From assembly GCA_048938855.1 (NCBI GenBank), contig JBHLLT010000033.1:1-26505 (forward strand): DNA of 26,505 bases, given 5' to 3'. Shown here piece after piece: positions 1 through 26,033 of the stretch (position 1 is the stretch's first letter; the number at the start of each line of letters is the position of its first letter). Source of the DNA: Promethearchaeota archaeon (GTDB lineage: Archaea; Asgardarchaeota; Lokiarchaeia; Sigyniarchaeales; SOKP01). Below the pieces are notes generated by a model that searched no databases, had not been told where the DNA came from, and saw nothing but the letters and a program-made list of their open reading frames with translations. A program made the translations under genes and the position numbers.

Positions 1-1535
1 AAGACAAATTCCTTAAGTAATACAACTCTAATATCGGGATTTTGAACTGATTTTATACGATGACCTATACCTGGAATATTAATCTTAACGACATCTTTCA
101 TATATTTCACGAATTCATGTGGTTTCATTTCCTTTTGTAGGGCTTCTCTTATATATTTTGCTGCATCTGATATTGCTCCTCCAAATCTTGGACCAATTGT
201 TAATATCCCACTGGCTAAAGCGGACATAAGGTCTTTCCCGGCACGAGCAGTAATAATAGCATTATGAGCTCCAGAAACTGCAGGTCCATGATCGGCGGTT
301 AATTTAATTACCATTTCGATAAATTGTTGAGCAAACTCTGGTAACTCTCGCTTAAACCATAAAAGCCCAATAACATATCCAATTGATCGATTATTTCTGA
401 TAATTTCATCTAATCCAACCCCAGCGAACGTAGGAACATCTCCTCGATCATCACTAATAGTGACAACAACATCAGAGTGTCTTCTAACTAATCCTGTTCT
501 TACAGCTTCGTTAAAATCGGTGGGAATTTTTGGAGGTTCTACTTCTTTAGCTGGAATTAATTTTCCTTCCTGTACTAGTTTCTCATAGACTTTTTTAATT
601 ACTTTATCAAAATCTTCATAAGATTCAGGGACAAAAGCGCCAACCTCCCTCAGTGCTTCATTTTTTGCCTCCGCGGTTTCTCTATCACTTCCAGCCATCG
701 CTCCGGCGTGACCAAACTGAAGATTCTGTGGTAATATCCTAGCAGCTGTACCTGTGACCCAAATGGCAAGAGGTTTTCTAATTTTCCCATTTTTTAAAGC
801 TTCAACAATTTCATATTCTTCTGTACCCCCTATTTCTCCCAAACAAACAAGCATTTTAATATTAGGGTTAGCTTCATATCTAAGAAGATGATCAATTAAT
901 CTTGAACCAGGATAGCGGTCTCCTCCAATCGCGATTGACTCATAAACACCATCAGTGGATTGTGCAATCATGAAATTCATTTCATTACTCAAACCACCAG
1001 ATTTTGATACAAAACCTACTGAACCAGGGCGGTATAATTTTGAGAGAATAATATTTTCAAGAGTTCCTGCTGTATTAGCGATTTTAAATGAACCTGCTTT
1101 TATCCCCCCTACTGTGGCAGGACCAATGATAATTTTATTTTTCTCGTCTGCTATCTTTATTAAATTTTTGCTTTGTCTTTCCGGGACTCCCTCTGCAATA
1201 ATTACTACTACTCGAATTGTATCTGCTTCAAGAGCCTCTTTACTCGTATCATAGGCTGATCTAAAAGAGGCAAAATTTATCATTACATCAGCTTTAGGAT
1301 GTTTTTTAACTGCCATTGCAAGGCTTTTATAAACTGGGATAACAATTTCTTTACTTCCCCAAAAAGCTTTATGGTAAGCGATTGCTGCTTCTTGAGTATT
1401 TTGAATCATTGCAGCAACTGAAGGTGTTTTTCTTCTACATACATAATCGAAATCTAACATTCTTTGCACAGGTGCCGCTTGAAGTCCATATATTATAGCC
1501 TGTGTATCTTCATTAAATAATTCATAACTATCCAT
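1..1535 (-). CDS. aclA: ATP citrate lyase alpha (large) subunit, 3'-truncated by the window edge; absent from the ORF track
   Basis: Manual translation from ATG at 1535 gives MDSYELFNEDTQAIIYGLQAAPVQRMLDFDYVCRRKTPSVAA...INFASFRSA...IAEGVPE...GPATVGGIKAG...SKSGGLSNE...AIGGDRYPGS...QFGHAGA (phospho-His)...ADHGPAVSGAHN...IGPRFGGA...IPGIGHRIKS (citrate-synthase-like lyase domain). It abuts the aclB stop (TAA-ATG), with AGGAGTGA upstream. Confidence 0.96.
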   Translation of the reverse strand, partial: MDSYELFNEDTQAIIYGLQAAPVQRMLDFDYVCRRKTPSVAAMIQNTQEAAIAYHKAFWGSKEIVIPVYKSLAMAVKKHPKADVMINFASFRSAYDTSKEALEADTIRVVVIIAEGVPERQSKNLIKIADEKNKIIIGPATVGGIKAGSFKIANTAGTLENIILSKLYRPGSVGFVSKSGGLSNEMNFMIAQSTDGVYESIAIGGDRYPGSRLIDHLLRYEANPNIKMLVCLGEIGGTEEYEIVEALKNGKIRKPLAIWVTGTAARILPQNLQFGHAGAMAGSDRETAEAKNEALREVGAFVPESYEDFDKVIKKVYEKLVQEGKLIPAKEVEPPKIPTDFNEAVRTGLVRRHSDVVVTISDDRGDVPTFAGVGLDEIIRNNRSIGYVIGLLWFKRELPEFAQQFIEMVIKLTADHGPAVSGAHNAIITARAGKDLMSALASGILTIGPRFGGAISDAAKYIREALQKEMKPHEFVKYMKDVVKINIPGIGHRIKSVQNPDIRVVLLKEFV

Positions 1536-2828
1536 TTACTTATCACTCCTCATTTTTTCAATCATTCTAGCTACTGGACGTGTCATACTACTATATCGAT
1601 CATAAATATCAATAGGAATACCTGTTTCCTCTCCAACTTGTCTCATTAACTCTAAGCCTTGTTTCTCATTTGGGCCACCCCGACGAACTAATATTTCAAC
1701 ATTTGCTTTCTTCAATTTATCTACTGATTTTTTAATTGCGTTTACGATACCTCCAAATGTAGCTTTTACATCAGTAAAGTTCGCAATTCCACCACCTATG
1801 ATCAAATATTTTTCTTTTCCTTTAGGATCTGGATTTTCAGTAATGAGATCTATTATGGTTTGGGCATAAATCTGGGTATGTTCTTGACTTGGATTACCAC
1901 TATATTCCCCATAATTACCTAATTCTTCTGAGAATCCAAGGTCGGCAATAGTGTCTGTATATATAACGGAAGCTCCTCCTCCAGCAACCATTGTCCAAAC
2001 ATGTCCCTCTCTGTTTAAAATGGTTAGTTTTAATGAAGCGCCTGTTTTTTCATCCAGTTGCTTTATTTTTAATTCTTCAGAACTCATCTCTTGACCGAAT
2101 CCTGCTGGAAATTCAATTGGATTATTTGGATTTCCCCATGTATCTGTATGAAGAAATGCTGCTGTATCGTCCAAACGAGCTTTAACATCTAATGGAACTA
2201 TTATTTTATCTTTTGTTACAGCAAATGGATTAATTTCAAGGAAAGCAAAATCTTGATCAAAATAAACATGGAATAATCCTTTAATAAAAGGAATTAAAAC
2301 ATCTTTTAAATTACCTAGATCTGGTAATTTGCTTTCCAAATCAAAATCACTTATATCTGTATCAAGAGGAACGGGGATATGGGTCACTTTATCCCAATTC
2401 TCCTCAATAAAAATCCCACCTTCAAAACTAAAATGAATAATATCATTATCTCTATCAGACGTAATTGATACATAATACTCTTTATCATGAGGAATAAAAG
2501 GTTCAACTATCAGACGTTTAAGTTCACCCCTAACATTACCAATCTCGAAAACTTTATCTAAATTATTATTACAAAATTTTTTCATCTCATCAAAATTAGC
2601 ATCAAGTAAAAGTAAGTTGGCTTTTCCTCTCTTTCCAAATAGTTGATCAGGTTTGACGGCTAGTTTTTCTGATTTAATCCATGGTTCTGTAGATATTAAT
2701 TGATTGAAATCAGTTTCACTTGAAACAATAGCTAGTTTATTATGATATTTAAACTCTGGATAATACTTCGGTAATTGGCTTGCTAATAACTTTTTTGCGT
2801 CATATTCATATATATTTTTTTGCGCCAA
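1536..2828 (-). CDS. aclB: ATP citrate lyase beta (ATP-grasp/citrate-binding) subunit, TTG start
   Basis: Motifs VKPDQLFGKRGK, EINP, DVKARLDDTA, ASLKLTILN, WTMVAGGGASV, NYGEYSGNP, GGGIANFTDV (citrate binding) and VRRGGPN; directly upstream of aclA. Confidence 0.96.
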   Translation of the reverse strand: MAQKNIYEYDAKKLLASQLPKYYPEFKYHNKLAIVSSETDFNQLISTEPWIKSEKLAVKPDQLFGKRGKANLLLLDANFDEMKKFCNNNLDKVFEIGNVRGELKRLIVEPFIPHDKEYYVSITSDRDNDIIHFSFEGGIFIEENWDKVTHIPVPLDTDISDFDLESKLPDLGNLKDVLIPFIKGLFHVYFDQDFAFLEINPFAVTKDKIIVPLDVKARLDDTAAFLHTDTWGNPNNPIEFPAGFGQEMSSEELKIKQLDEKTGASLKLTILNREGHVWTMVAGGGASVIYTDTIADLGFSEELGNYGEYSGNPSQEHTQIYAQTIIDLITENPDPKGKEKYLIIGGGIANFTDVKATFGGIVNAIKKSVDKLKKANVEILVRRGGPNEKQGLELMRQVGEETGIPIDIYDRYSSMTRPVARMIEKMRSDK

Positions 2829-2896
2829 AATTATCTAACTCAATAATCTCTTTTAATAATTTGTATAAAACTGATAATTTATGTAGAATCTGTTTT

Positions 2897-2910
2897 CTAA
2901 TAAATTTTTC
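2897..2910 (-). promoter_or_regulatory. Putative BRE/TATA promoter of aclBA
   Basis: Minus strand reads GAAAAA-TTTATTAG about 70 nt upstream of the aclB start. Confidence 0.4.
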
Positions 2911-2922
2911 TTACATGGTTAA

Positions 2923-2942
2923 TATGGGAATTATGTCCCATA
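2923..2942. promoter_or_regulatory. Perfect inverted repeat TATGGGA-N6-TCCCATA, candidate transcription-factor site
   Basis: 7-bp perfect arms, GC-rich against an AT-rich background, extendable by 3 bp after one mismatch; just upstream of the putative acl BRE/TATA. Confidence 0.5.
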
Positions 2943-3102
2943 GTAATGAGTGATCTCTGAAGATTTCGAGTGATTTTAAGATTTGGAAAGATTTTTTCTC
3001 AAAAAATTACTAAAAATGCACACATTGAGAATACTACCTAATTTCTAATTAGGAGTTTAATCGATCAACTGATTTTTATAATGAATAAGCATTTAATTCC
3101 CT

Positions 3103-3240
3103 TTATACTTCTATAAATAGAGCTTGAAAAAGTTCTTTCGTAAAAGTAGGACCTTCAATATAGACACTTATTCCCTTTTGAATGTTAAGAGAATAATTTA
3201 CAACAACTTCAGCGAGTTTTTCATAAAAAGGATTAATCAT
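3103..3240 (-). pseudogene. N-terminal remnant (45 aa) of an M29 (AmpS/aminopeptidase T-type) aminopeptidase
   Basis: Manual translation MINPFYEKLAEVVVNYSLNIQKGISVYIEGPTFTKELFQALFIEV* matches the typical M29 N-terminus (EKLA-x3-VNYSL-x-[IV]QKG-x2-V-x-I-x-G). There is no room for the remaining ~320+ aa before aclB. Confidence 0.7.
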
Positions 3241-3282
3241 GATAATAATCAAAATTTATAATTAATTATAAATCTTTTATGG

Positions 3283-3891
3283 TTAAGTCTTTTTCTTCAA
3301 AATATAATCTAAGACACACGTCCTTCCAGTATTGAAATATCTCCCCTTAAGAATATGTCTTTTTTCCTTATATATGATGTCAAAGTTATGAAAAAAACCA
3401 TCAGCTTCATCATCATCATAATAACTATGAATTAGTTCTTCATTATCGCTAAAAATTTCTCCTGATTTAGTCGCTTCGTTTTCATCATACCATTTGTCAT
3501 CTTTTGAGAGGAAGTTTAGATAACAGAGTCCTCCTGGTACCAACACACGATGAATCTCATTAATGGCTTGAGATGTCTGATTTTTACTCAGATGCACCAT
3601 GGAAAGATAAGAATAAACATAACCAAAATATTTGGAGTCAAAAGGGATATTTCTCATATCTCCTTTTATAATATTTAACTTAACATTATGATCTTTACAA
3701 TAATTTTTTGCTTCCTTTATTTGATCCTCAGAAATATCAATCCCGTAGGACTCAAATCCATTTTCATGGAAAAAAGTTAGTTTTGGATCTGGACCACCAG
3801 CTCCACAATCAAGTATTCTATTATTAACTGGATTGGATTGAATAAATCTAAGAAAATTATATAATGAGGATGGATAGAACTTTTTAATCAT
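3283..3891 (-). CDS. Class I SAM-dependent methyltransferase
   Basis: ILDCGAGG motif I, GIDIS, GDMRNIPF, EIHRVLVPGG. ATG at 3891 (MIKKFYP) is preferred over the track TTG at 3942. Confidence 0.85.
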   Translation of the reverse strand: MIKKFYPSSLYNFLRFIQSNPVNNRILDCGAGGPDPKLTFFHENGFESYGIDISEDQIKEAKNYCKDHNVKLNIIKGDMRNIPFDSKYFGYVYSYLSMVHLSKNQTSQAINEIHRVLVPGGLCYLNFLSKDDKWYDENEATKSGEIFSDNEELIHSYYDDDEADGFFHNFDIIYKEKRHILKGRYFNTGRTCVLDYILKKKT

Positions 3892-3973
3892 TGATAAAGA
3901 AATTTTGTGTGATTTAAAAAATTTTTTTAGAAAATAAGGCAAACTTGGAGAATTATATATATTTTAAAATCTT

Positions 3974-5410: not shown

Positions 5411-5592
5411 ATTAAATCTCCCTCCAAATAATAAACAAGATTTTAAATAGTTTTGCCAGATTTTTCGGATTTTGGTTATTCTATCTATATGTTAAATTAC
5501 TATAAAAGAATTTTGGTAAATTGATTTAACATATATTAGAACAACAATTTAAAAATATAAAATTCAGACTCTTTTTTTAGCAATTAACTAGA

Positions 5593-6453
5593 TTATAAAA
5601 ATCTTTTAATTACATGAGGAATATCCCATGGAAGATCTGCAATATGGACTCCCGCCATTGAGAGTGCTTTTATTTTTCCTTGAGCTGTACCAAAATCTCC
5701 AGAAATAATTGCTCCTGCATGACCCATTCTTTTTCCTTGAGGGGCACTTTTTCCAGCTATATATGCAATTACAGGCTTTGAAACATGATTTTTTATATAT
5801 TCTGCAGTTTTTTCTTCTTCATCACTTCCAATCTCCCCGATGAGAACAATTACTTTTGTATTATCATCTTGAGCATAATATTTGACAGCTTCCTTCATAG
5901 TTTTACCCCTAACAGAATCCCCTCCAATTCCTATATATGCAGAAACTCCAATTCCCGCATTACCTATTGTTTTTGTAATTTCATAAGAAAGAGTTCCACT
6001 TTTTGAAATAACTGCTACATTGCCAAAATGACACAAATCACCTGGCATAATTCCCAACTTGATTTTATCGGGAATTAACATTCCTGGACAATTCGGACCT
6101 ATTAAATGCAATCCTCTTTCCTTTGCTATTTCAACAAGTCTTAACATATCATGAACAGGAACATTTTCTGTTATAATGCACGTAATCTTTATCCCTGCAT
6201 ATAATGCTTCTTTTACTGCTCCAAATGTGAATCGGGCGGGGACAAAAACAATACTAGTATTACAATGTGTTTCATTTATTGCATCTTTTACTGTATTAAA
6301 AACAGGTACATCATGGACTTTTTGACCTCCTTTCTTGGGGGTTACTCCAGCAACTATATTAGTCCCATAATCTAACATAAGTCTAGTATGAAACATTCCT
6401 TGATTTCCTGTAATACCTTGAACAACAACCTTAGAATTTTCATTAATATACAT
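5593..6453 (-). CDS. sucD: Succinyl-CoA synthetase alpha subunit
   Basis: VVVQGITG, AGVTPKKGG, GPNCPG, SKSGTLSYE, GIGGD, IGEIG, GKRMGHAGA (phospho-His); starts 1 nt after the sucC stop. Confidence 0.92.
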   Translation of the reverse strand: MYINENSKVVVQGITGNQGMFHTRLMLDYGTNIVAGVTPKKGGQKVHDVPVFNTVKDAINETHCNTSIVFVPARFTFGAVKEALYAGIKITCIITENVPVHDMLRLVEIAKERGLHLIGPNCPGMLIPDKIKLGIMPGDLCHFGNVAVISKSGTLSYEITKTIGNAGIGVSAYIGIGGDSVRGKTMKEAVKYYAQDDNTKVIVLIGEIGSDEEEKTAEYIKNHVSKPVIAYIAGKSAPQGKRMGHAGAIISGDFGTAQGKIKALSMAGVHIADLPWDIPHVIKRFL

Positions 6454-6454
6454 C

Positions 6455-7579
6455 TTAGTGCTCCACCACTTCTTTAACTTTTTTAACTGCTTCCATTACA
6501 TCTTTATAAGCAATAATTCCTTCTTTTTGTAATAATGCGATTCCTTCTGCTTCATTAGTACCAGTTAATCGAATTACTAAAGGAGGAGTGTCTTTAAAAT
6601 TATTTAAAGCTTGAATAATTGCTTCTGCTACAATATCACATCGAGTAATTCCCCCATATATATTTATTAGAATACATTTTGGTTGTAATTTGAATATTAA
6701 TTCGAGTGCTTTATATACGCGTTCTTTACTCGCACCACCCCCTACATCCAAGAAATTTGCAGGTTTTAATTCTAACTCAGAAAGTACATCTAAAAGAGCC
6801 ATTGTTAAACCTGCTCCGTTTGCTAATATCCCAACATCTCCTTCAAGTTCAACAAATGAAAAACCTGCACCTTTTGCTAATTTTTCTAAATCACTGAGCT
6901 TTTTTTCTTGAAAATCTCGGATTATAGTTTGCTTAAAGGCAGCAGCATCATCGACAATCATTTTTCCATCTAGGGCGATCAAACCTAAGGGGGTAAGAAC
7001 CAAAGGGTTAATTTCTACTAACTGTGCTTCAAGCTCTAACGTAATTTCCCATAATTTTTGGAAAATTTCTATTGCTGAATTTAAGAGGTTTTCTGAAAAA
7101 TCTAGCTGTTGTGCAATTTTTTGTGAAATTTCTTCACTTAAGCCTTCATGAATCGAAAAATTTACCTTAATAATTGCTTCTGGATTGGATTTTGCTACCT
7201 CTTCTATATCAATTCCTCCTTCTTTACTCGCTATAATAAAAAACTGTCTTCCTGAAGCATCCAATGCTATTGAACAATAATATTCATGTATTATCTCTGT
7301 TAATTGCTCTATCAAAATAGCTTCTACTTGGAATCCGGCAACTTTTTTCTGAAAAAATTCTTTACATAGAGATAATGCTTCTTCTGAGCTTTGAGCAATT
7401 TTTATTAATCCTGCTTTTTTTCTACTCCCGATAGCAATTTGGGATTTAACAATAGCAGGAAATATGAATTTTTTTACTTCTTCTTCAATATTGTCCTTTT
7501 TATCAATTACTATACTTTTGAGGAGGGGAATGCCAAATCTGCTAAAGATCATCTTGCTTTCATATTCAAGTAGTCGAAT
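6455..7579 (-). CDS. sucC: Succinyl-CoA synthetase beta subunit (likely ATT start at 7579)
   Basis: GGIDIEEV, EINPL, NGAGLTMA, NFLDVGGGA, NIYGGITRCD, RLTGTN. The conserved N-terminus (M)RLLEYESK lies upstream of the track ATG at 7552 and begins at ATT with GGAGG 8 nt upstream. Confidence 0.92.
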   Translation of the reverse strand: MRLLEYESKMIFSRFGIPLLKSIVIDKKDNIEEEVKKFIFPAIVKSQIAIGSRKKAGLIKIAQSSEEALSLCKEFFQKKVAGFQVEAILIEQLTEIIHEYYCSIALDASGRQFFIIASKEGGIDIEEVAKSNPEAIIKVNFSIHEGLSEEISQKIAQQLDFSENLLNSAIEIFQKLWEITLELEAQLVEINPLVLTPLGLIALDGKMIVDDAAAFKQTIIRDFQEKKLSDLEKLAKGAGFSFVELEGDVGILANGAGLTMALLDVLSELELKPANFLDVGGGASKERVYKALELIFKLQPKCILINIYGGITRCDIVAEAIIQALNNFKDTPPLVIRLTGTNEAEGIALLQKEGIIAYKDVMEAVKKVKEVVEH

Positions 7580-7735
7580 AAATTATCCCTCCATGTTTTA
7601 ATAGCCAATAGTATACTATAGATTGTCCTAATTTCAGTTTAATAATCAATTTGCTTATTTAATTAATAAACCTTTTTTTAATAGTCTATAAAACAATTAG
7701 TCAATTTTATTGGAGAAAATTGATTTTTATTAAAA

Positions 7736-8200
7736 ATGGAAAGAATTAACTTTAATTTTGGAACTCTTAAAGTTGATCAACTTGGATATATATATAAAGA
7801 TATTGAAGAACAAGCTAAATTATTGGAAAATATTTATGGTCTTCCAAAGTTCGCGTTTCTTGAGAGATTTGATACTCCTTGCAAATATAGGGGAAAAGAT
7901 TCCATAATATCAACCAAGTTAGCTTTTAGCAGGATATTTAATGTTCAAATTGAATTAATTCAATATATTAAAGGCGAATGTGTATATAAAGAATTTTTAG
8001 ACTCGGGAAGAAAAGGTTTACACCATTTTGCAATTATGGTGGATGATCTAGAGACCATTGTCAAGGAATTTACAGATAAAGGTTATGAAATTCTTCACCA
8101 GACTCAAATAGGAAACCAAAAAATCGCATTTTTGGACACAGAGAAGGACTTAGGAATATTACTAGAATTTCAAGAAACAATCAAAAGAAAAAAAAGATAA
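7736..8200 (+). CDS. VOC family protein (glyoxalase/methylmalonyl-CoA epimerase-like)
   Basis: DQLGYIYKDIEE, IELIQ, GLHHFA and LLEFQE supply the Q/E/H/E metal-ligand pattern of VOC proteins. Confidence 0.8.
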   Translation: MERINFNFGTLKVDQLGYIYKDIEEQAKLLENIYGLPKFAFLERFDTPCKYRGKDSIISTKLAFSRIFNVQIELIQYIKGECVYKEFLDSGRKGLHHFAIMVDDLETIVKEFTDKGYEILHQTQIGNQKIAFLDTEKDLGILLEFQETIKRKKR

Positions 8201-17648: not shown

Positions 17649-18668
17649 TTATAAATTTTTTAATCTAGGGTCTAAAGCATCTCTTAAGCCATCACCAAGA
17701 AGCATAAAACCTAATACTGTAAGCAATATCATGAATCCAGGCCACAGAGAGGCCCATGGTGCAGAGTATAGATTAGTTCTGGCAAAATTAATATCATTTC
17801 CCCATTCTATCATATTGGGGTCACTAAACCCTAGATATGCAAGTGCTGCTAGGCTTAAAATCCATGCTCCAATATTGAAGGTAACTGAAATAATTATTGG
17901 TTGAATTACATTAGGTAGTATATGTCGAAACATTATTCTCCCATTTCCTGCCCCTGCAACTTTAGCTGCTTGAATATATGGTAATTCTCTTGCTTGCAAC
18001 ACATTACCCCTAATCAATCTAGCATAAAATGGAATACCTAAAATACCCCATACAATCAATATATATTGAATTTGTTGTCCAACAATTGAGATCATCACCA
18101 AAGCAAGAATTAATCCCGGAAAGGCTAATAAAATATCACACAATCTCATTAAAATTGAATCAACCCATCCACGATAATAGGCTGCTATAATTCCAATAAT
18201 TACTCCACCAACTACACTCACCCCTATTGATGGCAAAGCCGCTGATAATGAAGAACGTGCTCCAAACATTAATCTTGATAACACATCATACCCTAATTCT
18301 GATTGTCCTAGTGGATGCGCTGGTGATGGGAAACTCCATGCTCCAGGATGACTAACGGTTACATACTCTATAGGATAAGGTGAAAGCCAGTGACAGAAAA
18401 CCGCTATAGATACAACAGTAAACACGATAACAATACCTGTGACTGTCAAAATTGATTTAAATCGTCGAATAAATTTTCTCTTACCTCTTATTCTTTCAAA
18501 TTCAATTTCTCGTTGTGTTAAATCATCTAATCTAGATCCTGGGAAAAACAAGAATTTTAGGTTTTTAAAAGCCCATGAAATCACATTTGCTGATACTTTT
18601 TCTTCTTCTGGAATTCCTTCTGTTACTAATTCTAATTCCATTTCATAAGGTTTTTCCAAATTTCTCAT
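17649..18668 (-). CDS. dppC: Peptide/nickel ABC transporter permease, DppC/OppC type, with N-terminal extension
   Basis: HPLGQSELGYDVLSRLMFGARSSL, EAA loop YIQAAKVAGA...RHILPN, LLGDGLRDALDPR. Confidence 0.9.
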   Translation of the reverse strand: MRNLEKPYEMELELVTEGIPEEEKVSANVISWAFKNLKFLFFPGSRLDDLTQREIEFERIRGKRKFIRRFKSILTVTGIVIVFTVVSIAVFCHWLSPYPIEYVTVSHPGAWSFPSPAHPLGQSELGYDVLSRLMFGARSSLSAALPSIGVSVVGGVIIGIIAAYYRGWVDSILMRLCDILLAFPGLILALVMISIVGQQIQYILIVWGILGIPFYARLIRGNVLQARELPYIQAAKVAGAGNGRIMFRHILPNVIQPIIISVTFNIGAWILSLAALAYLGFSDPNMIEWGNDINFARTNLYSAPWASLWPGFMILLTVLGFMLLGDGLRDALDPRLKNL

Positions 18669-18701
18669 CTCATTATTATTTTTCTGTTTCTTAAATTTAT
18701 A

Positions 18702-19730
18702 TTAGAATCTAATTCGTGGATCTAATATCGCATATAATAGATCTGTTATTAGAGTAGCCATTACAAATATAATTGTTATAATAAATACAACTGCGTTTAT
18801 CAACCAGTAATCTATCAAATTGATCGCCTGTACAAGTAATGAACCCATTCCATTTAATCCAAATGTTGTTTCCGTAAGTACTGCTCCTGCTAACAATCCT
18901 GCCACATTTAACCCAATAACGGTCACCGTGGGTATCATTGAATTTTTAAGGGCATGCTTATGTATTACCGCCTTTTCCTTACACCCTTTTGCTCTCGCAG
19001 TCCTCACATAATCTTGCTGTAACACTTCTAGCATACTTGATCGTGTTTGTCTCACAATTCCCGCAAGTGTGACAAATGCAAGACAGAATACTGGTAGAAT
19101 TAAGTGATAGAGATAATCCGGTATTTTGTATAATTGCCCTGATATAAGAGCATCAATCATATAAAATCCTGAAATCATTGGTGGATCTTCAAAATCGATG
19201 TTTTTATAGTAAGTACCCGGAAAAATGGGCACTAAATAGGCAAGCGTGTATTGGAGGATCATTCCAAGAAAGAATATTGGGACCGCAACTCCGATAAGTG
19301 CCATACCTCTAAAGGCAGTGTCTCGTAATTTATTTCTATGGGTTGCTGAAATAACTCCGATCTTAATTCCTAAATATGAGGCTATTATCATTGAGAAAAT
19401 CGTCAAATCTATTGTCCTAGGTAATCTTAGCATAATAAGGGTCCACACAGGGGTTTGCCTCGCAACAGAAACTGATATACCCCAGTTTCCTGTAAATAAA
19501 TCACCCAAATATCTAAAATATTGAACAACAATGGGGAGATCGAGACCATATAATCTCCTATACTGAGCAACAATTTGAGGTAATGGATCGGATATACCCA
19601 TTGCTTCTAATAATGCGTAGATTGGATCGCCGGGCATCAATCGAGAAAGAATAAATGTTAAAGTCAACACTCCAAATATAACTGGTATTGCTGCTAATAA
19701 TCTTCGTACTATATATTTTAGCATACTCAT
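18702..19730 (-). CDS. dppB: Peptide/nickel ABC transporter permease, DppB/OppB type
   Basis: YIVRRLL, MPGDP, GLDLPIVVQY, TRSSMLEVLQQDYVRTARAKG, HALKN, TETTFGLNGMG, LYAILDPRI. Start is ATG 19730 (alternative 19739). Confidence 0.92.
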   Translation of the reverse strand: MSMLKYIVRRLLAAIPVIFGVLTLTFILSRLMPGDPIYALLEAMGISDPLPQIVAQYRRLYGLDLPIVVQYFRYLGDLFTGNWGISVSVARQTPVWTLIMLRLPRTIDLTIFSMIIASYLGIKIGVISATHRNKLRDTAFRGMALIGVAVPIFFLGMILQYTLAYLVPIFPGTYYKNIDFEDPPMISGFYMIDALISGQLYKIPDYLYHLILPVFCLAFVTLAGIVRQTRSSMLEVLQQDYVRTARAKGCKEKAVIHKHALKNSMIPTVTVIGLNVAGLLAGAVLTETTFGLNGMGSLLVQAINLIDYWLINAVVFIITIIFVMATLITDLLYAILDPRIRF

Positions 19731-19895
19731 TAAAACCATCCTAGTCCTTTTCTTTTTTTAAATTTTTACTCAAAAAATATCCTTAAATCATTTCTTTTGA
19801 CATATTTACTTTTCTTGACATATCATAATTTTTAGACTTGAAAATATTCATAGTCTTCACAAATAGATATAAATTCTAGCGTTAAATACATTTAT

Positions 19896-20004: not shown

Positions 20005-20790
20005 ATGAAGAGATTTGAAGAAAATAATGATATTAAAGAAAAAAATGAATATATTTATAGAATTAAATCAAGAAAAATTCGCATAAAACCTTTAGTAAGT
20101 TTTTATCTCAAAAGGGTGATTAATTCTCTAACGATCCTTCAGGGGATAATGACAATCTGTTTTTTATTTTTCTATTTTCAAAAAGTAATAACACTTGAGA
20201 TTATTATTTTCTATCTATATTTCTCAATAATAATTTTCATTACTTATGGTTTTTTGATTTTTAGTATTCATTTTTTAGAAAGACCTGATATTGAAAAAGT
20301 TATACCTGAATCTACGCAAATCTTAGAAGAGTTAACCGAAGTCAAACCTGAACTTACTGAAGAATTCTTACAAGGCAAAACTCTTCAAGTTTATTGGTAT
20401 TTTTTTACAAAAAGACAGGCTGGAGTTAGGGAGATTCAGAAGGCATTGAATATTTCATCCTCTGGAACAGTTTCTTATCAAATAACAAAGTTGTTAAAAG
20501 CAGGAATTATATCAAAGGATGATGAAGAAGGAAAGTATTCTATTAAACAAGATCTCAAAATAGGAATATTGAAATTGTTTGTTCGGATTGGTAATAGAAC
20601 TATGCCCCGAATTTCATTATATCTTTTAATTTATTCATTTGGTTTTATTACTTTCTTAATTCTCGCTATAATTCAAGGGATTGATTTCTTCTCAGACCCA
20701 ATAAATCTAACATTATTATGTTTTTTAATTATAGGTACAATAATTTTTATTATAGAATCATTTAAAATTAGGAAATTGAAACCATTATGA
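20005..20790 (+). CDS. Membrane-anchored winged-helix transcription regulator (2 TM - wHTH - 2 TM)
   Basis: GKTLQVYWYF...GVREIQKALNISSSGTVSYQITKLLKAGIISK...GKY is an ArsR-like wHTH, flanked by two N-terminal and two C-terminal hydrophobic helices. Confidence 0.8.
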   Translation: MKRFEENNDIKEKNEYIYRIKSRKIRIKPLVSFYLKRVINSLTILQGIMTICFLFFYFQKVITLEIIIFYLYFSIIIFITYGFLIFSIHFLERPDIEKVIPESTQILEELTEVKPELTEEFLQGKTLQVYWYFFTKRQAGVREIQKALNISSSGTVSYQITKLLKAGIISKDDEEGKYSIKQDLKIGILKLFVRIGNRTMPRISLYLLIYSFGFITFLILAIIQGIDFFSDPINLTLLCFLIIGTIIFIIESFKIRKLKPL

Positions 20791-20981
20791 TAAATATATA
20801 GAATTTTGTTAAGAAAAAAAGAAAATAGTATTAAGAATTGACTTAATCTTTTAATAAGTGATTTTAATTATCCCCTTTCCTATTGTATATAAAGTTAAAG
20901 GTATTTATTACCTTTATAATCGCAAATGTTTAAAAACAAATTCTTTAACTATTTTATTACATGGTTTAAGGATGAGAATAA

Positions 20982-22235
20982 ATGGCTGAAAATAACATAA
21001 AAACATTCAAACTTAATTTTGATGGAACTTTCGATGAGATATCTTATGAAAACATAAAAGAAGTCTTTACAATTGTAAATATATTAGCAATTTATATCAA
21101 AAAAATAAAAACGATGTACATATGGATTGGGAGAAATGCCACTCAAGCCTTAAAAAACCATATTTCTCAAATCCGTGTATTATTGAAAGATGAATTCCCT
21201 GATTTTCGAATTATCAGGAATATCACTTTTGATATGGGAACAGAACCATTTGAATTTTTTAATAATCTAAATATGGAAAAAGAAGAACTTTATGAAATCA
21301 TTAATTATCAAGAAAAAACAATTCTACCTATTTTAGAAAAAGTTGAAGGGTTAAAAGAAAACTCAGAGAAATTAATGCAATCTGAGCAATATAAAGATGC
21401 TATTGAATTATTAAAAAAAATAATCAAATTAGCTAAAAAGATAGAAGATGATGCTCTGATAGCTGAGCAAACAAGATTGATTTCTCAGTTAACAGAGAAA
21501 TATGAAAATAAAGAAATTGTTAATGAAATTGATGTAGAGACAAAAGAAATTGAAAAAGAATATAATTACTTAGTAAATAATAATAATCTATTAGAAGCCC
21601 ATAATTTAATCCAAAATTTTAAAAAAAAGTATGAAGGAAAATATAATTTATCATTAATCCCCCATACAAAAGAGCTAATTTTGAAAGAAAAAAGAATATG
21701 GTCTTCAGAGCAAGAGAGATTAACAAACATTCTAAGTAAACTTGAAAAAGAATTAAATTTCTCATTAGAAAGCCGTGATGTAAATAAAGCAACTGATATT
21801 TTCGAAGAAGGATTAAGATTCTTTGCTAATTTAATAGATGACAACATCAAGATCAAATGGAATGGGTTAGAAAAAAAAATACAAGAGACTAATGAAAAAA
21901 TAGAAAGAAAAAAATTCGAAGAAAAACAAGCTGAACTTAAGACTGAACTTTCGAAACTGGAAGAAAAATTCTTTGCATCTATAAAGATATTTGAATTTGA
22001 GGAAATGAACAATATTTTCAAAAGTAGTTCAAATTTTCTCTCTGAGGTTGTAGACGATAATATCAAGCAAAAATGGCAGGAATTTAGAGATAAATATAAA
22101 AATGCCACCCAACTTTTAGATATCATAGAATATCTGAGCAAAAATGCCATTAATGCTTTAAATAATCGTTCTTTTTCAGAATCTTTAGATTCTTTCACAC
22201 AAATTATAACCCATTTACAAGAGTACAAGAAATAA
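20982..22235 (+). CDS. Gelsolin-like domain protein with C-terminal helical repeats
   Basis: The N-terminal ~105 aa carry ILAIY...MYIWIGRNATQALK...ITFDMGTEPFEFF, matching the gelsolin pattern [IV]xxWxG..S/T...K...GxExxxF. The rest is E/K-rich and helical, with two repeats 72 aa apart ending DDNIKxKW. Confidence 0.7.
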   Translation: MAENNIKTFKLNFDGTFDEISYENIKEVFTIVNILAIYIKKIKTMYIWIGRNATQALKNHISQIRVLLKDEFPDFRIIRNITFDMGTEPFEFFNNLNMEKEELYEIINYQEKTILPILEKVEGLKENSEKLMQSEQYKDAIELLKKIIKLAKKIEDDALIAEQTRLISQLTEKYENKEIVNEIDVETKEIEKEYNYLVNNNNLLEAHNLIQNFKKKYEGKYNLSLIPHTKELILKEKRIWSSEQERLTNILSKLEKELNFSLESRDVNKATDIFEEGLRFFANLIDDNIKIKWNGLEKKIQETNEKIERKKFEEKQAELKTELSKLEEKFFASIKIFEFEEMNNIFKSSSNFLSEVVDDNIKQKWQEFRDKYKNATQLLDIIEYLSKNAINALNNRSFSESLDSFTQIITHLQEYKK

Positions 22236-22254
22236 AGATCTCAGGTGAAAAGAT

Positions 22255-23262
22255 TTGACTGAAGATAAAACAGAACCTATTGAAGAAGTAATGGAAAAAG
22301 AAGAAAAAAGAAAAATTAGAGTTGTTGAACAAATTGATAATCGACTCGCTATTCAAGGTCAGGCATATATAAAAGGAAAACTAAAAGAAGCTTTATCAGT
22401 TGCATATGAAATAATAGATTTAGCAAAACCAGAGAAATTGAATTCATTTGTTAAAGATCAAGAAGATTTAATTGCTCGAATTAAAAATCTTTTGAAAGAA
22501 AAAGAAGAAAGCGAACTTGAACAGCTGCATGCTGAACAAGAAAGAAAGAACCTCGAGAAGATAAATAAATTAAAAAATGACATAAGCAATTTAGAATATA
22601 GTTATAAAGCAGGAATGGATGCTGAAGATCTCTCAAAAACTAAAGAATCGATAGAAAAAGCAAAAACTTTACTTTCACAACTTGATAATGAAATGGATCT
22701 CAAGAAAAAATGGAAAGAATTTGAAATAAAATATTTAGATAACAAACTGAAGAGAGAACTTATTGATAAAGCTCAAAAATTAATTGAAGAGAGTATTACT
22801 CTAAAACAGAAATTTCAATTTAATGAACTTAAACCAAAGCTAGCAGATATTATAGAAAAATTTAAGGAAAATAATATAAAAGAACATATAGATGAATTAG
22901 AGTTTATTCAAAATGATATCTTAAATGATGAAAAAACTTACCTAAATACTTTAGAAAATATTGAAAATTTAACCAAAGAGATTAAAAATCTCCAAAATAA
23001 ACAAGATTTTAGAAATGCTATTACACAATGCGAAAAACTCTTGAAACTTGCAGAATCTATAGAAAAACTAGACGTGATTAAAGAATGTTCAGAGATTTTA
23101 GCAAATCTGCAAAAAGCTTCAGAATTTGAAGAATTGAAAGATTCAGTAAACAAACTAAATAATGAAGGATTAGATTTATTAAAAAAAGGAGATATCTCCT
23201 CTTCTCTTAAAAAATTTGAAATAATAAAAGGAGCTATAGTATTTTATTTAGAACAACAATAA
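22255..23262 (+). CDS. Helical-repeat/coiled-coil protein related to the C-terminal part of the upstream gelsolin-like protein
   Basis: TTG start with SD AGGTGA and a 19-nt gap; all-alpha E/K/L-rich sequence; shares repeat types with the upstream protein (ISNLE...DLKKKWKEFEIKY; DFRNAITQCEKLLKLAE). Confidence 0.75.
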   Translation: MTEDKTEPIEEVMEKEEKRKIRVVEQIDNRLAIQGQAYIKGKLKEALSVAYEIIDLAKPEKLNSFVKDQEDLIARIKNLLKEKEESELEQLHAEQERKNLEKINKLKNDISNLEYSYKAGMDAEDLSKTKESIEKAKTLLSQLDNEMDLKKKWKEFEIKYLDNKLKRELIDKAQKLIEESITLKQKFQFNELKPKLADIIEKFKENNIKEHIDELEFIQNDILNDEKTYLNTLENIENLTKEIKNLQNKQDFRNAITQCEKLLKLAESIEKLDVIKECSEILANLQKASEFEELKDSVNKLNNEGLDLLKKGDISSSLKKFEIIKGAIVFYLEQQ

Positions 23263-23271
23263 AGTTCTATT

Positions 23272-24057
23272 TTAACTTTTCATTTGCCCATATATAATCA
23301 CAGTATCATACTCAAACCTAATAAATCCATCTTTTTGAAATTTTTCAAATAATTGCTTTAAATCAAGCAACATATCATTATACTTAGGGTTATCATCTAA
23401 GGGGATATATGAAGTAGAAAGTAATCTACCTTCTAAGCCATCGTAATCAAATATTTGAACATTATCATAATTTACCTTATAATAATTGTTTTTTGATTCA
23501 GAACCGCCGAAGAATTTATTAAATTCAAGTTTGCGCTTCTCAATGGCTTTATAATCTGTCCCATATTTTAAAAGAAATTTTTCATATTCTTTCAAGAATT
23601 CATTAGTATGCTTTTTTCGGCGGTTCCAAATTAAAACAACCCATCCATCAGTTCTAAGAATACGAGAGAATTCTATTCTGGTTTTTTCTAAATCAAACCA
23701 ATGAAATGCTTGGCCAGCTGTAATAATATCAATACTATTTGTTTCTAAGTTAATTTTTTCAGCAGATCCATCCATACTAATAAACTTTGAATATTTTCCA
23801 AGTAATTTTTCTGCAGCTGTTCTCATATCACTATTTGGTTCAATTCCATAGACTTCATTGCCTTCCTTAAGAAATAATTCACTTAATATACCAGTACCTG
23901 AGCCAATATCTGCAATTCTAGAATTAGATGATAAAATTTTTTTTTCTTTTAAAAAATTGATTATTTCTTGGGGATATCTGGGTCTATATTTGATATATCT
24001 ATCCACTCTTGAAGAAAACCGCTTTTTCGGATCTTGCTTGAATTTTTTATCAAACAT
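23272..24057 (-). CDS. Class I SAM methyltransferase, Tmt1/Crg1-like small-molecule type
   Basis: YIKYRPRYP, ADIGSGTG, GIEPN, DIITAGQAFHWFDLEK, ILRTDGWVVLIWN. Confidence 0.85.
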   Translation of the reverse strand: MFDKKFKQDPKKRFSSRVDRYIKYRPRYPQEIINFLKEKKILSSNSRIADIGSGTGILSELFLKEGNEVYGIEPNSDMRTAAEKLLGKYSKFISMDGSAEKINLETNSIDIITAGQAFHWFDLEKTRIEFSRILRTDGWVVLIWNRRKKHTNEFLKEYEKFLLKYGTDYKAIEKRKLEFNKFFGGSESKNNYYKVNYDNVQIFDYDGLEGRLLSTSYIPLDDNPKYNDMLLDLKQLFEKFQKDGFIRFEYDTVIIYGQMKS

Positions 24058-24107
24058 TAAAATAATAAATATAAAAAGAATAAAAAAAATTGTTATTGGT
24101 TTTTATT

Positions 24108-26033
24108 TTAATTATGCTTCTGTTTGATTAAGGTTAATTTCCCACCAGCCATTAACTCTTCTAAATCTTGCTTACTTAAAGAATGAGTTAATGGTATTTC
24201 TAAATTTTTAGTAAGGATTTTTAAAGAGACTTTACCGGATTTTATTGTTGATAAATCTACTTCAAATTGGTCTCCTTGGTCTATTTTATTATAGTCTTCT
24301 TTATTTTCAAAGGTCAATGGAACAATTCCAAAATTGACTAGATTAGCTAGATGGATACGAGCAAAGCTTTTAACTATAACAGCTTTAATTCCAAGATATT
24401 TAGGGGCGATGGCTGCATGTTCACGGCTTGAACCTTGTCCATAGTTATCTCCTCCTACAATAAATCCTCCAGATTTTGCAAGTGATCTATCATGAAAAGA
24501 CTCATCAATTACATTGAAAACAAATTTACTAATCTCAGGGATGTTACTTCTTAAAGGTAAAATTTTAGCCCCAGCTGGCATAATATGATCAGTTGTAATA
24601 TCATCCTCTACTTTTAAAAGTACCTCTCCCTCTAGTTTATCTGGTAAGGGATTAAATTCTGGTAACGGTTTAATATTAGGTCCTCTGATAATTTCTACAT
24701 TCTTAGCTTCATCGGGAGGTAATGGTGGAATTATCATATTATCATTAACTATAAATTTCTTTGGCATCGTATACTTTGGAAGCTTACCAAACTTTCGAGG
24801 ATCAGTTATTTTACCTTGTATAGCTGCCATAGCCGCTGTTTCTGGACTTACTAAGTAAGCATTAGCACTTTTTGTACCTGTTCTTCCCAAAAAGTTTCTA
24901 TTAAATGTTCTTAGGGAAACAGCATTACTTTTAGGAGCTAAACCCATTCCTATACATGGTCCACATGCATTTTCCAATATTCTTGCACCTGCTTTTACCA
25001 AATAACCCATTTCACCTGAATCAATCATATGATTTACAACTTGTCGTGACCCTGGTGATACTGTTAAAACAGTATTTAGAGCTATAGTTTTATCCTTTAA
25101 CATATTTGCACTTACTTTAAGATCTCTTAAAGAAGAGTTAGTGCAACTACCAATACATACTTGGTCTACATTCAATCCTTCTAATTCTTTTACAGTCTTA
25201 ACATTACCAGGGCTATGAGGTTCAGCAATTAAAGGTTCTAATTCACTTAAGTTTATTTCGATTGTTTCATCGTAGACAGCATCATTGTCTGGTTCTAATT
25301 GAATCCACTGATCTCCTCTTTCTTGTGCCTCTAAAAATTCTTTTGTAATTTCATCAGAAGGAAAGACCGATGTAGTTGCTCCAGTTTCTGTTCCCATATT
25401 AGTAATTGTGCCTCTTTCAGGAACTGATAATGTTTTTATTCCAGGTCCACTATATTCTAATATTTTATTTACTGCTCCTTTAACACCAATCCTCCTTAAT
25501 ACTTCTAAGATTACATCTTTGGCAGAAACGAAATCAGGTAGTTTTCCTGTAAGATAAACCTGTACAACATTTGGCATTTTTAATCTAAATGGTTCTCCTG
25601 CCATGGCAGCAGCTACGTCAAGTCCACCAGCTCCAATTGCTAATGATCCTACACCCCCTCCAGTTGGGGTATGACTATCACTCCCAAGTAAAGTTCTCCC
25701 TGGGCGCGCAAATCTTTCTAGATGTAACTGATGACATATACCATTTCCAGGTCTAGAAAAATATAATCCATATTTAGCTGCTATACTTTGAAGATATCGA
25801 TGATCATCTGGATTTTTAAAATCAGTTTGTAAAGTATTATGGTCAACATAACTCACAGATAATTCAGTTTGTACTCGGGAAATTCCCATGGCTTCAAATT
25901 GCAGATATGCCATTGTTCCAGTAGCATCTTGGGTTAATGTCTGGTCTATTTTTATTGCTATATCAGTACTTTTTTCTAATTCTCCTTCAACTAAATGCTG
26001 TTCTAAGATTTTTTCAGTTAACGTTTTTCCCAT
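24108..26033 (-). CDS. Aconitate hydratase (short, Aquifex-type putative aconitase family)
   Basis: DQTLTQDATGTMA, DHN, GICHQ, DSHT, GSCTNSS and CGPCIGMG ([4Fe-4S] Cys), TFNRNF, ITTDHI, NYGQGSSREHA, SFARIH. ATG 26033 is preferred over TTG 26045. Confidence 0.92.
   Translation of the reverse strand: MGKTLTEKILEQHLVEGELEKSTDIAIKIDQTLTQDATGTMAYLQFEAMGISRVQTELSVSYVDHNTLQTDFKNPDDHRYLQSIAAKYGLYFSRPGNGICHQLHLERFARPGRTLLGSDSHTPTGGGVGSLAIGAGGLDVAAAMAGEPFRLKMPNVVQVYLTGKLPDFVSAKDVILEVLRRIGVKGAVNKILEYSGPGIKTLSVPERGTITNMGTETGATTSVFPSDEITKEFLEAQERGDQWIQLEPDNDAVYDETIEINLSELEPLIAEPHSPGNVKTVKELEGLNVDQVCIGSCTNSSLRDLKVSANMLKDKTIALNTVLTVSPGSRQVVNHMIDSGEMGYLVKAGARILENACGPCIGMGLAPKSNAVSLRTFNRNFLGRTGTKSANAYLVSPETAAMAAIQGKITDPRKFGKLPKYTMPKKFIVNDNMIIPPLPPDEAKNVEIIRGPNIKPLPEFNPLPDKLEGEVLLKVEDDITTDHIMPAGAKILPLRSNIPEISKFVFNVIDESFHDRSLAKSGGFIVGGDNYGQGSSREHAAIAPKYLGIKAVIVKSFARIHLANLVNFGIVPLTFENKEDYNKIDQGDQFEVDLSTIKSGKVSLKILTKNLEIPLTHSLSKQDLEELMAGGKLTLIKQKHN

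What the first reader, a model, noticed from the sequence alone, without database searches (positions are those of the whole stretch)
1..26033. ATP-citrate-lyase-containing citric acid cycle gene cluster in a probable Asgard archaeon
Seen: aclBA, sucCD, sdh/frdAB, fumC and aconitase lie within 26 kb, in five transcription units on both strands. Known: heteromeric ACL is the key enzyme of the reverse TCA cycle in Chlorobi and Campylobacterota and the cytosolic acetyl-CoA source in eukaryotes; it is uncommon in archaea. Inference: this is a citrate-cleaving (reductive or reversible) TCA cycle or branch, in a lineage usually described as peptide-fermenting or Wood-Ljungdahl based. IDH, 2-oxoglutarate:ferredoxin oxidoreductase, MDH and citrate synthase are not in this window, so autotrophy cannot be claimed.
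Basis: partly seen in the sequence, partly recalled or inferred. Interest (0 to 1): 0.75.

Follow-up and report, generated by a model that had tools for sequence, protein, structure and literature searches.

The report
Asgard ATP-citrate-lyase TCA gene cluster
A Lokiarchaeia-type Asgard archaeon keeps its citric-acid-cycle genes, built around ATP-citrate lyase, in one loose neighbourhood; the cluster is real, but it has been published for these archaea since 2018, and this genome holds a cut-down version that cannot close the cycle.

Summary
aclBA, sucCD, sdhAB, fumC and an aconitase all lie on this 26.5-kb contig. Exact 77-bp end overlaps join it to a 195-kb contig and a 24-kb contig. AclA then completes to 611 aa, followed by the genome's only isocitrate dehydrogenase gene.

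The taxonomy is confirmed as Asgard. Named relatives are Promethearchaeota MAGs, and the genome shares an order with Promethearchaeum syntrophicum MK-D1 and Lokiarchaeum ossiferum, which also carry acn-aclBA. The synteny is conserved: aclB-aclA-icd recurs in most of 57 related loci.

A same-genus genome is collinear with the window but carries korAB and a citrate synthase-aconitase pair at sites where this genome has other genes. No korAB-type oxidoreductase is found anywhere in this assembly, and the only citrate synthase sits on a 67% GC contaminant contig. This genome therefore encodes two open arms, not a cycle, and reverse-TCA autotrophy is unlikely here. The direction of flux cannot be read from the DNA.

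It is not novel. Bulzu et al. (bioRxiv 385732, 2018) proposed an ACL-based reverse TCA cycle for Lokiarchaeia, and later papers report ACL across Asgard archaea. This scan has noted the same cluster in at least 13 other genomes.

The parts
3..1535 (-). aclA, ATP-citrate lyase alpha subunit. The window holds the first 511 of 611 aa; the last 100 aa lie on contig C62, reached through a 77-bp overlap.
   Evidence: CoA_binding, Ligase_CoA and Citrate_synt domains. 659 bits to Methanothrix concilii ACL chain B (6HXI/6ZNW) and 615 bits to human ACLY, with the FGHAGA, DHGPAVSGAHN and GIGHRIK motifs kept. The frame continues on C62 and includes LILNVDG.
1536..2828 (-). aclB, ATP-citrate lyase beta subunit (ATP-grasp plus citrate-binding domain)
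   Evidence: PF24948 at 231 bits and PF16114 at 252 bits. 445 bits to M. concilii 6HXI_A, 339 bits to human ACLY and 179 bits to Chlorobium 6HXJ_A.
5593..6453 (-). sucD, succinyl-CoA synthetase alpha subunit
   Evidence: NF004230 scores 386.8 bits against a cut-off of 336.
6455..7579 (-). sucC, succinyl-CoA synthetase beta subunit. The first ATG is at 7552, but the gene probably starts at an ATT at 7579.
   Evidence: NF001913 scores 360 bits, just under the 370 cut-off because the model's first 10 positions are missing from the ATG-started ORF. The conserved RLLEYESK lies in frame upstream of that ATG.
7736..8200 (+). Glyoxalase-fold protein, weakly like methylmalonyl-CoA epimerase. It occupies the site where relatives carry korAB.
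   Evidence: PF13669. TIGR03081 scores 47.8 bits, below its 115 cut-off. Site comparison with G229, L079 and L082.
8467..10179 (+). sdhA/frdA, flavoprotein subunit of succinate dehydrogenase or fumarate reductase
   Evidence: TIGR01812 scores 727.6 bits against a cut-off of 567.
10179..10940 (+). sdhB/frdB, iron-sulfur subunit. No membrane-anchor gene follows it.
   Evidence: TIGR00384 scores 204 bits against a cut-off of 88. The next gene is an S41 peptidase on the other strand.
12451..13836 (+). fumC, class II fumarate hydratase
   Evidence: Lyase_1 plus FumaraseC_C domains. The best solved relatives are fumarases at 458 bits, against 370 bits for aspartases.
13853..14908 (+). FMN-dependent 2-hydroxyacid dehydrogenase-like gene, 17 nt after fumC; substrate unknown
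   Evidence: PF01070 at 210 bits. The SNHGGR motif is kept, but only the C-terminal half aligns to lactate or glycolate oxidases. The fumC-FMN_dh pair recurs in L058, L059, L061, L079 and G229.
24108..26045 (-). acn, 645-aa aconitate hydratase (PRK07229 type)
   Evidence: NF005558 scores 982.5 bits against a cut-off of 612. In many relatives, including MK-D1 and L. ossiferum, this gene lies directly upstream of aclB.
10987..12261 (-). S41 peptidase (context gene, conserved at this place in relatives)
   Evidence: PF03572. Found in L044, L046, L053 and L070.
15613..19739 (.). M28 peptidase (15613..17592, +) and two peptide-type ABC permeases (17649..19739, -). The permeases occupy the site where G229 has citrate synthase plus a second aconitase.
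   Evidence: Pfam; collinear comparison with G229:C21.

Best explanation
This is a genuine, vertically inherited ATP-citrate-lyase-centred TCA gene neighbourhood of a Lokiarchaeia (Promethearchaeia) Asgard archaeon, in a reduced form. More complete relatives carry korAB-sdhAB-fumC-FMN_dh facing sucCD-aclBA-icd, with acn nearby, and some also have a citrate synthase-acnA pair. This genome has lost korAB. It also lacks the citrate synthase-acnA pair, though whether that is a loss here or a gain in relatives is open. What remains is two open arms that meet at oxaloacetate, not a cycle. Arm 1 is aconitase, AclBA and Icd, with glutamate dehydrogenase about 5.2 kb (5,105 bp) past the window end. It interconverts glutamate/2-oxoglutarate with acetyl-CoA plus oxaloacetate. 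Arm 2 is an Ldh_2-type malate dehydrogenase candidate, FumC, anchor-less SdhAB, SucCD and methylmalonyl-CoA mutases. It connects oxaloacetate with succinyl-CoA and propionyl-CoA. GTP-PEPCK links oxaloacetate to PEP. The gene content and the losses are shown. The roles are inferred. My bet, about 55:45, is that arm 1 runs mainly in the cleavage direction during peptide fermentation: glutamate to 2-oxoglutarate, reductive carboxylation, citrate, then acetyl-CoA plus oxaloacetate. Arm 2 would then serve as an electron sink or as a propionyl-CoA route. The direction cannot be read from the DNA.
For: The contig joins, the full-length AclA and the adjacent icd come. Synteny: aclB-aclA-icd or acn-aclB-aclA recurs in most of 57 loci, and the compact korAB-sdhAB-fumC-FMN_dh / sucCD-aclBA-icd form is seen in L079 and L082. 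The same-genus contig G229:C21 is collinear with the window but has korAB and gltA-acnA where the window has a glyoxalase-fold gene and ABC permeases. No KorA or KorB homologue is found in the whole assembly. TIGR03710 is present in 118 of 134 family genomes but not in G000 or the single-contig same-genus genome G189, which NCBI titles a chromosome. The only citrate synthase is on the 66.6% GC contig C37, and G189 also has only the AclA domain. Elsewhere in the genome there are two Ldh_2 genes, GTP-PEPCK, three MM-CoA mutase family genes, GDH and CdhC. No malic enzyme, PYC or archaeal PEPC is found. Peptidase and peptide-transporter genes are interleaved with the TCA genes.
Against: The assembly is a MAG (97% complete, 7% contaminated), so absence is not proof. 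Three POR/VOR-like oxidoreductases of unknown specificity exist, and one of them could accept 2-oxoglutarate. Nothing in the sequence fixes the direction of flux. No expression or labelling data are available. The bacterial-type PEP carboxylase family (PF00311) was not searched. GDH proximity could not be assessed in relatives, because the 10-kb flanks do not reach that far.
Confidence: 0.55

Rival explanations
1. ACL runs backwards as an ATP-conserving citrate synthase. This would head the oxidative arm of a biosynthetic horseshoe TCA that makes 2-oxoglutarate and glutamate in an energy-starved anaerobe that has no citrate synthase.
For: Most ACL-bearing genomes of the genus lack citrate synthase. 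The aclBA-icd operon encodes, with aconitase, the steps from acetyl-CoA plus oxaloacetate to 2-oxoglutarate. No korAB is available to make 2-oxoglutarate reductively. From my own knowledge, not checked in the library: the ACL reaction is close to equilibrium, and Desulfobacter postgatei uses it in this direction.
Against: At least 12 relatives carry both citrate synthase (paired with its own acnA) and ACL (paired with acn and icd). That suggests opposite roles for the two, with ACL as the cleaving enzyme. These archaea are described as amino-acid consumers with few biosynthetic pathways (PMC7015854), so the demand for de novo glutamate may be low. Low oxaloacetate levels disfavour a near-equilibrium synthase.
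Confidence: 0.25
2. The genes form a complete reverse TCA cycle for autotrophic CO2 fixation, as proposed for Lokiarchaeia by Bulzu et al. One of the POR/VOR-like oxidoreductases would serve as 2-oxoglutarate synthase, and PEPCK would serve as the carboxylase.
For: ACL, Icd, aconitase, SdhAB, FumC, SucCD and POR-type enzymes are all present. The published reconstruction for Lokiarchaeia is bioRxiv 10.1101/385732. Relatives do carry korAB inside the cluster.
Against: korAB is missing at its syntenic site and genome-wide here. None of the three OFOR alpha subunits scores best as KorA, and their 2-oxoglutarate synthase matches are 86-98 bits or absent, against a cut-off of 579. No PYC or archaeal PEPC is found. 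SdhAB has no anchor and no evident low-potential donor. The genome already has the CODH/ACS route.
Confidence: 0.1
3. The picture is a binning or assembly artefact. Either the contig is foreign or chimeric, or the missing genes are merely unassembled.
For: The bin has 7% contamination and contains about 65% GC contigs.
Against: The contig's GC is 31%, against about 30% for the bin. Exact 77-bp overlaps tie it to C62 (195 kb) and C58. AclA reads through the junction to the same length as its relatives. The gene order, including non-TCA genes, is collinear with same-genus genomes. The syntenic sites of korAB and gltA are contiguous sequence without Ns. The single-contig genome G189 shows the same absences.
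Confidence: 0.05

Closest known systems
Lokiarchaeia 'reverse TCA' reconstruction of Bulzu et al. (bioRxiv 10.1101/385732, 2018)
   Same: The lineage and the gene set match: ATP-citrate lyase, isocitrate dehydrogenase, SdhAB without sdhCD anchors, and a malate dehydrogenase found only as COG2055 (Ldh_2 type) (here).
   Different: They report 2-oxoglutarate:ferredoxin oxidoreductase and a complete cycle used for autotrophy. This genome lacks korAB and citrate synthase, so the cycle is open.
Reports of ACL across Asgard archaea: bioRxiv 10.1101/2022.10.25.513756 and Santana-Molina et al. 2025 (PMC11976288)
   Same: Both state that ACLA/B occur in multiple Asgard clades. My count is 122 of 400 genomes in the phylum.
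   Different: Those papers address enzyme phylogeny and find that the eukaryotic clades do not branch with Asgard. In the passages I read (term searches, not the full texts), they do not describe the gene neighbourhood or its reduced variants.
Heteromeric ACL of Methanothrix (Methanosaeta) concilii, PDB 6HXI/6ZNW
   Same: It is the closest solved relative, with the same two-subunit architecture (445 bits for AclB, 659 bits for AclA) and the same catalytic motifs.
   Different: It comes from a different archaeal phylum, and its genomic context was not compared here.
AclBA of Chlorobium limicola, the classic rTCA enzyme (PDB 6HXJ)
   Same: It is a two-subunit ACL with the same reaction chemistry.
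   Different: It is much more distant (179 and 359 bits). From textbook knowledge, it works in a complete cycle with 2-oxoglutarate synthase.
Human ACLY with cytosolic aconitase and IDH1 (reductive carboxylation route to acetyl-CoA)
   Same: The three activities are those of the acn-aclBA-icd module, and ACLY is the second-closest solved relative (339 and 615 bits).
   Different: ACLY is a fused single chain. Published trees do not place eukaryotic ACL with Asgard sequences. The analogy of use is my inference.

Membership tests
Heteromeric ATP-citrate lyase (AclA/AclB) | Beta subunit with an ATP-grasp domain and an ACL-specific citrate-binding domain | tested here: met
   PF24948 scores 230.7 bits (cut-off 83) and PF16114 scores 251.9 bits.
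Heteromeric ATP-citrate lyase (AclA/AclB) | Alpha subunit with CoA-binding, CoA-ligase and C-terminal citrate-synthase-like (citryl-CoA lyase) domains | tested here: met
   The full 611-aa protein is obtained after joining C62 and C53.
Heteromeric ATP-citrate lyase (AclA/AclB) | Catalytic phosphohistidine (GHAG) plus the His/His/Asp of the lyase domain | tested here: met
   FGHAGA, DHGPAVSGAHN and GIGHRIK align with the M. concilii enzyme, and LILNVDG is present on the C62 part. Which residue is catalytic rests on my memory of ACLY and citrate synthase.
Heteromeric ATP-citrate lyase (AclA/AclB) | ATP- and CoA-dependent citrate cleavage activity | not testable with these tools
   This needs an assay of the recombinant enzyme.
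ACL-dependent reverse TCA cycle | 2-oxoglutarate:ferredoxin oxidoreductase | tested here: not met
   The five POR_N proteins are all POR/VOR-like or have only weak POR_N matches (44-46 bits, 652-678 aa, not classified further). tblastn with the cluster-type KorA and KorB of L079 finds nothing. TIGR03710 is absent. The syntenic site is occupied by another gene.
ACL-dependent reverse TCA cycle | Fumarate reductase with a suitable electron donor | tested here: inconclusive
   SdhAB is present without anchor genes. The direction and the redox partner are unknown.
ACL-dependent reverse TCA cycle | Isocitrate dehydrogenase and aconitase | tested here: met
   A single Iso_dh gene lies after aclA, and its closest solved relatives are NAD-IDHs.
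ACL-dependent reverse TCA cycle | Anaplerotic carboxylase (pyruvate carboxylase or PEP carboxylase) | tested here: not met
   PYC_OADA and the archaeal PEPcase_2 family are not found. Only GTP-PEPCK is present. PF00311 was not searched.
Oxidative TCA cycle | Citrate synthase | tested here: not met
   The only true match is on the 66.6% GC contaminant contig C37. The syntenic gltA-acnA site is occupied by ABC permeases.
Asgard archaea (Promethearchaeota), class Lokiarchaeia/Promethearchaeia | Genome-level placement, with nearest relatives named as such | tested here: met
   The genome is placed in the same order as G143 and G138. Their coordinates match the MK-D1 (NZ_CP042905) and L. ossiferum (CP104013) loci. 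The nearest AclB sequences (64-89% identity) are all from Promethearchaeota or other Asgard MAGs. Marker-gene phylogeny was not run.

The most novel reading that the evidence does not exclude
In Lokiarchaeia without citrate synthase or KorAB, such as this one, the acn-aclBA-icd module together with glutamate dehydrogenase could be a catabolic 'reductive glutaminolysis' route. It would turn peptide-derived glutamate into acetyl-CoA plus oxaloacetate, the same wiring that hypoxic eukaryotic cells use with IDH1, ACO1 and ACLY. The anchor-less SdhAB with FumC and the linked FMN-dependent 2-hydroxyacid dehydrogenase would form a quinone-free fumarate electron sink.
Probability: 0.2. Interest if true: 0.55.

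Novelty: already known. Interest (0 to 1): 0.2.

Why it matters
ACL supplies cytosolic acetyl-CoA in eukaryotes, so its presence in Asgard archaea bears on host metabolism at eukaryogenesis and on whether these sediment archaea fix CO2. Both points have been raised in print already, and published trees do not link eukaryotic ACL to Asgard sequences. This window adds one modest caution. Within a single genus the cluster occurs in a complete form and in reduced forms. ACL presence alone should therefore not be scored as a reverse TCA cycle in metabolic reconstructions of Asgard MAGs.

Tried and rejected
1. I asked whether the truncated aclA meant a broken gene. It does not: the frame continues across a 77-bp contig overlap.

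2. I asked whether the citrate synthase hit in the genome was native. It lies on a 66.6% GC contig and is a contaminant.

3. I asked whether fumC is really aspartase. NCBIfam is ambiguous, but solved fumarases score clearly higher.

4. I checked whether the split AclA and SucC matches in L054, L065 and L076 are mini-introns, which earlier notes report for this lineage. The missing stretches are far longer than the roughly 100-nt gaps, so these look like deletions or assembly/scaffolding gaps. I did not inspect the gap sequences.

5. I looked for strict ACL versus citrate synthase mutual exclusion. It does not hold, because at least 12 genomes of the family carry both.

6. I tested whether GDH and pyroglutamyl peptidase proximity is conserved. 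The relatives' loci are too short to show this.

7. PHROG and Pfam searches of the three low-GC ORFs at 20005-23262 gave nothing.

8. I did not build an ACL tree with eukaryotes. The homologue search returned only Asgard sequences at 78% identity or above among its best 120 hits, and the question is already answered in PMC11976288.
Full report
**What is in the window.** The window is the whole 26,505-bp contig C53 of a 3.95-Mb MAG with 93 contigs. The MAG has about 30% GC, is 97% complete and 7% contaminated, and several small contigs of about 65% GC are obvious contaminants.

- aclA, 3..1535(-), running off the contig end
- aclB, 1536..2828(-)
- sucD, 5593..6453(-), and sucC, 6455..7552(-)
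- sdhA, 8467..10179(+), and sdhB, 10179..10940(+)
- a class II fumarase, 12451..13836(+)
- a 645-aa aconitase, 24108..26045(-)

Between them lie three methyltransferase genes, a TPR/zinc-ribbon protein, S41 and M28 peptidases, two peptide-type ABC permeases, a glyoxalase-fold gene, an FMN-dependent dehydrogenase and three ORFs with no family match. The fumarase call is supported by solved structures: fumarases score 458 bits and aspartases 370 bits.

**The cluster extends beyond the window.** The last 77 bases of contig C62 (194.8 kb) are identical to the first 77 of C53, and the last 77 of C53 are identical to the first 77 of C58. Across the first junction AclA reads on without interruption to 611 aa, the same length as in relatives. 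103 nt downstream on the same strand lies the only Iso_dh-family gene of the genome, at C62:193125-194318. Its best curated and solved matches are isocitrate dehydrogenases. On C58, glutamate dehydrogenase starts about 5.2 kb (5,105 bp) past the window end, alongside a pyroglutamyl peptidase and an oligopeptide-binding protein.

**Is the ACL real?** AclB has the ACL-specific ATP-grasp and citrate-binding domains. AclA has CoA-binding, CoA-ligase and citrate-synthase-like domains. The closest solved enzyme is the heteromeric ACL of Methanothrix concilii (445 and 659 bits), then human ACLY (339 and 615 bits), and far behind it Chlorobium limicola (179 and 359 bits). The phosphohistidine motif FGHAGA and the lyase-domain motifs DHGPAVSGAHN, GIGHRIK and NVDG are all present. 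The enzyme looks intact.

**Taxonomy and chimerism.** The genome sits in a phylum of which 400 genomes were searched. It shares an order with G143 and G138, whose hit coordinates match the Promethearchaeum syntrophicum MK-D1 and Lokiarchaeum ossiferum chromosomes. All 57 related loci come from Promethearchaeota or other Asgard MAGs, or from MAGs titled only 'uncultured archaeon', with AclB identity of 64-89% (96% in one fragment). The best 120 database homologues, all at least 78% identical, are likewise Asgard wherever named, with one exception labelled Candidatus Nanopelagicaceae, and NCBI annotates them as ATP citrate lyase proteins. The contig's GC, the two exact overlaps and its collinearity with relatives, non-TCA genes included, argue against a foreign or chimeric contig.

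**Conservation.** The ACL citrate-binding domain is found in 122 of 400 genomes of the phylum, 80 of 134 of the family and 39 of 53 other genomes of the genus. ACL is therefore common in this lineage. A tblastn of the window's proteins against the 57 loci shows aclB-aclA-icd in most. It shows acn-aclB-aclA in the MK-D1 and L. ossiferum clade. It also shows sucCD, sdhAB, fumC and the FMN_dh gene close by in many loci. The most compact form, in L079 and L082, is korA-korB-sdhA-sdhB-fumC-FMN_dh on one strand facing sucC-sucD-aclB-aclA-icd on the other. The first two of those genes are a two-subunit 2-oxoacid:ferredoxin oxidoreductase (TIGR03710 at 581 bits, over its cut-off).

**What this genome lacks.** Contig C21 of the same-genus genome G229 is collinear with the window from aclA to acn. 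It differs at two sites:
- It carries korAB between sdhA and sucC, where the window has only the glyoxalase-fold gene.
- It carries a citrate synthase (415 aa) plus an 893-aa aconitase between the M28 peptidase and the unknown ORFs, where the window has the two ABC permeases.

Both window sites are uninterrupted sequence. Genome-wide, tblastn with the L079 KorA and KorB finds nothing. TIGR03710 is present in 118 of 134 family genomes but not in G000 or in the single-contig same-genus genome G189, which NCBI titles a chromosome. The five POR_N proteins are three POR/VOR-like enzymes and two 652-678-aa proteins with only weak POR_N matches, possibly indolepyruvate-type. None scores best as KorA. 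The only true citrate synthase lies on the 66.6% GC contig C37, and G189 also has none. Because korAB sits at the same position in distant relatives, its absence here is a loss.

Across the family, the 20 genomes with the cluster-type KorA (about 570-620 bits) mostly also have citrate synthase (17 of 20), and 14 of the 20 have ACL. Most ACL-bearing genomes have neither citrate synthase nor that KorA (read from the tables). These genomes are related, so no statistical test is offered.

**Rest of the pathway.** The genome has:
- two Ldh_2-family dehydrogenases, the class in which Bulzu et al. found the Loki malate dehydrogenase
- one L-LDH-like protein
- GTP-PEPCK
- three methylmalonyl-CoA mutase family genes
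- GDH
- CdhC of the Wood-Ljungdahl route

It lacks malic enzyme, the pyruvate carboxylase B domain and archaeal PEP carboxylase. No anchor gene accompanies SdhAB, as already reported for these archaea.

**How it most likely works.** This genome encodes two arms joined at oxaloacetate, not a cycle. Arm 1 (acn, aclBA, icd, with gdh nearby) connects glutamate/2-oxoglutarate with acetyl-CoA plus oxaloacetate. Arm 2 (MDH candidate, fumC, sdhAB, sucCD, mutases) connects oxaloacetate with succinyl-CoA and propionyl-CoA. That fits the propionate-type metabolism Imachi et al. inferred for Asgard archaea.

The direction is inferred, not shown. I lean slightly toward citrate cleavage. In relatives that have both enzymes, citrate synthase is paired with its own aconitase and ACL is paired with acn and icd, which suggests opposite jobs. 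The neighbourhood is also interleaved with peptidase and peptide-uptake genes.

The main rival is ACL working backwards as an ATP-conserving citrate synthase for glutamate synthesis. A full autotrophic reverse cycle is unlikely in this genome, and an assembly artefact is very unlikely.

**Novelty.** Bulzu et al. (bioRxiv 10.1101/385732, 2018) already described ACL, IDH and 2-oxoglutarate:ferredoxin oxidoreductase in Lokiarchaeia as a reverse TCA cycle. They also noted the missing sdhCD and the COG2055-type MDH. A 2022 preprint and Santana-Molina et al. 2025 report ACL across Asgard clades and find that eukaryotic ACL does not branch with them. Earlier notes of this scan record the same cluster in at least 13 genomes, with the same verdict. 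I reached that verdict independently before reading them.

The finding is real but already known. The small addition is that this genome documents a reduced, open variant.

Noticed in passing
window 13853-14908 (+); also L058, L059, L061, L079 and G229:C21 13865-14920: An FMN-dependent 2-hydroxyacid dehydrogenase-like gene follows fumC by 17 nt. The pair is conserved, and in compact relatives it is the last gene of korAB-sdhAB-fumC-FMN_dh. Only its C-terminal half aligns to lactate or glycolate oxidases, though SNHGGR is kept. Look-alike clusters occur in strict anaerobes, and in methanogens they are fused to rubredoxin. It may be a quinone-free malate or lactate dehydrogenase that works with the anchor-less SdhAB. 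The substrate is unknown.
   Followed up: partly
window 7553-7585 (-): The conserved N-terminus of SucC (RLLEYESK) lies in frame upstream of the first ATG and directly after a TAA stop. The only plausible start is an ATT at 7579, 7 nt after GGAGGG. The closest relative, L044, has the same arrangement, so this is a probable non-canonical ATT start codon.
   Followed up: partly
window 20005-23262 (+): Three ORFs (261, 417 and 335 aa) in a 25% GC stretch have no credible Pfam match (only a borderline DUF621 hit on the 261-aa ORF) and no PHROG match. Homologues of two of them (the 417- and 335-aa ORFs) lie at the same site in the same-genus genome G229.
   Followed up: partly
G000 contigs C62 end, C53 and C58 start: Exact 77-bp overlaps chain three contigs into about 245 kb. 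The assembly graph was probably broken at strain-level branches. Other contig ends in this bin may join in the same way.
   Followed up: partly
G000 contig C37 (2.7 kb, 66.6% GC), and also C11, C19, C29 and C30: High-GC contaminant contigs are present in the bin. C37 carries a genuine citrate synthase fragment, which would wrongly complete the TCA cycle in an automated reconstruction.
   Followed up: yes
window 26154-26417 (+): A short ORF matches only positions 74-159 of the 164-position DUF6125 profile. No room is left upstream before the aconitase start, so it is a truncated or short variant.
   Followed up: no
L080 6853-8259 (-) (Hermodarchaeota-labelled MAG): This more distant Asgard cluster has a different SdhAB with small anchor-like ORFs, a two-subunit class I fumarase, and a LarA-family gene that scores best as nickel-dependent malate racemase, all beside aclBA-icd-acn.
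   Followed up: no
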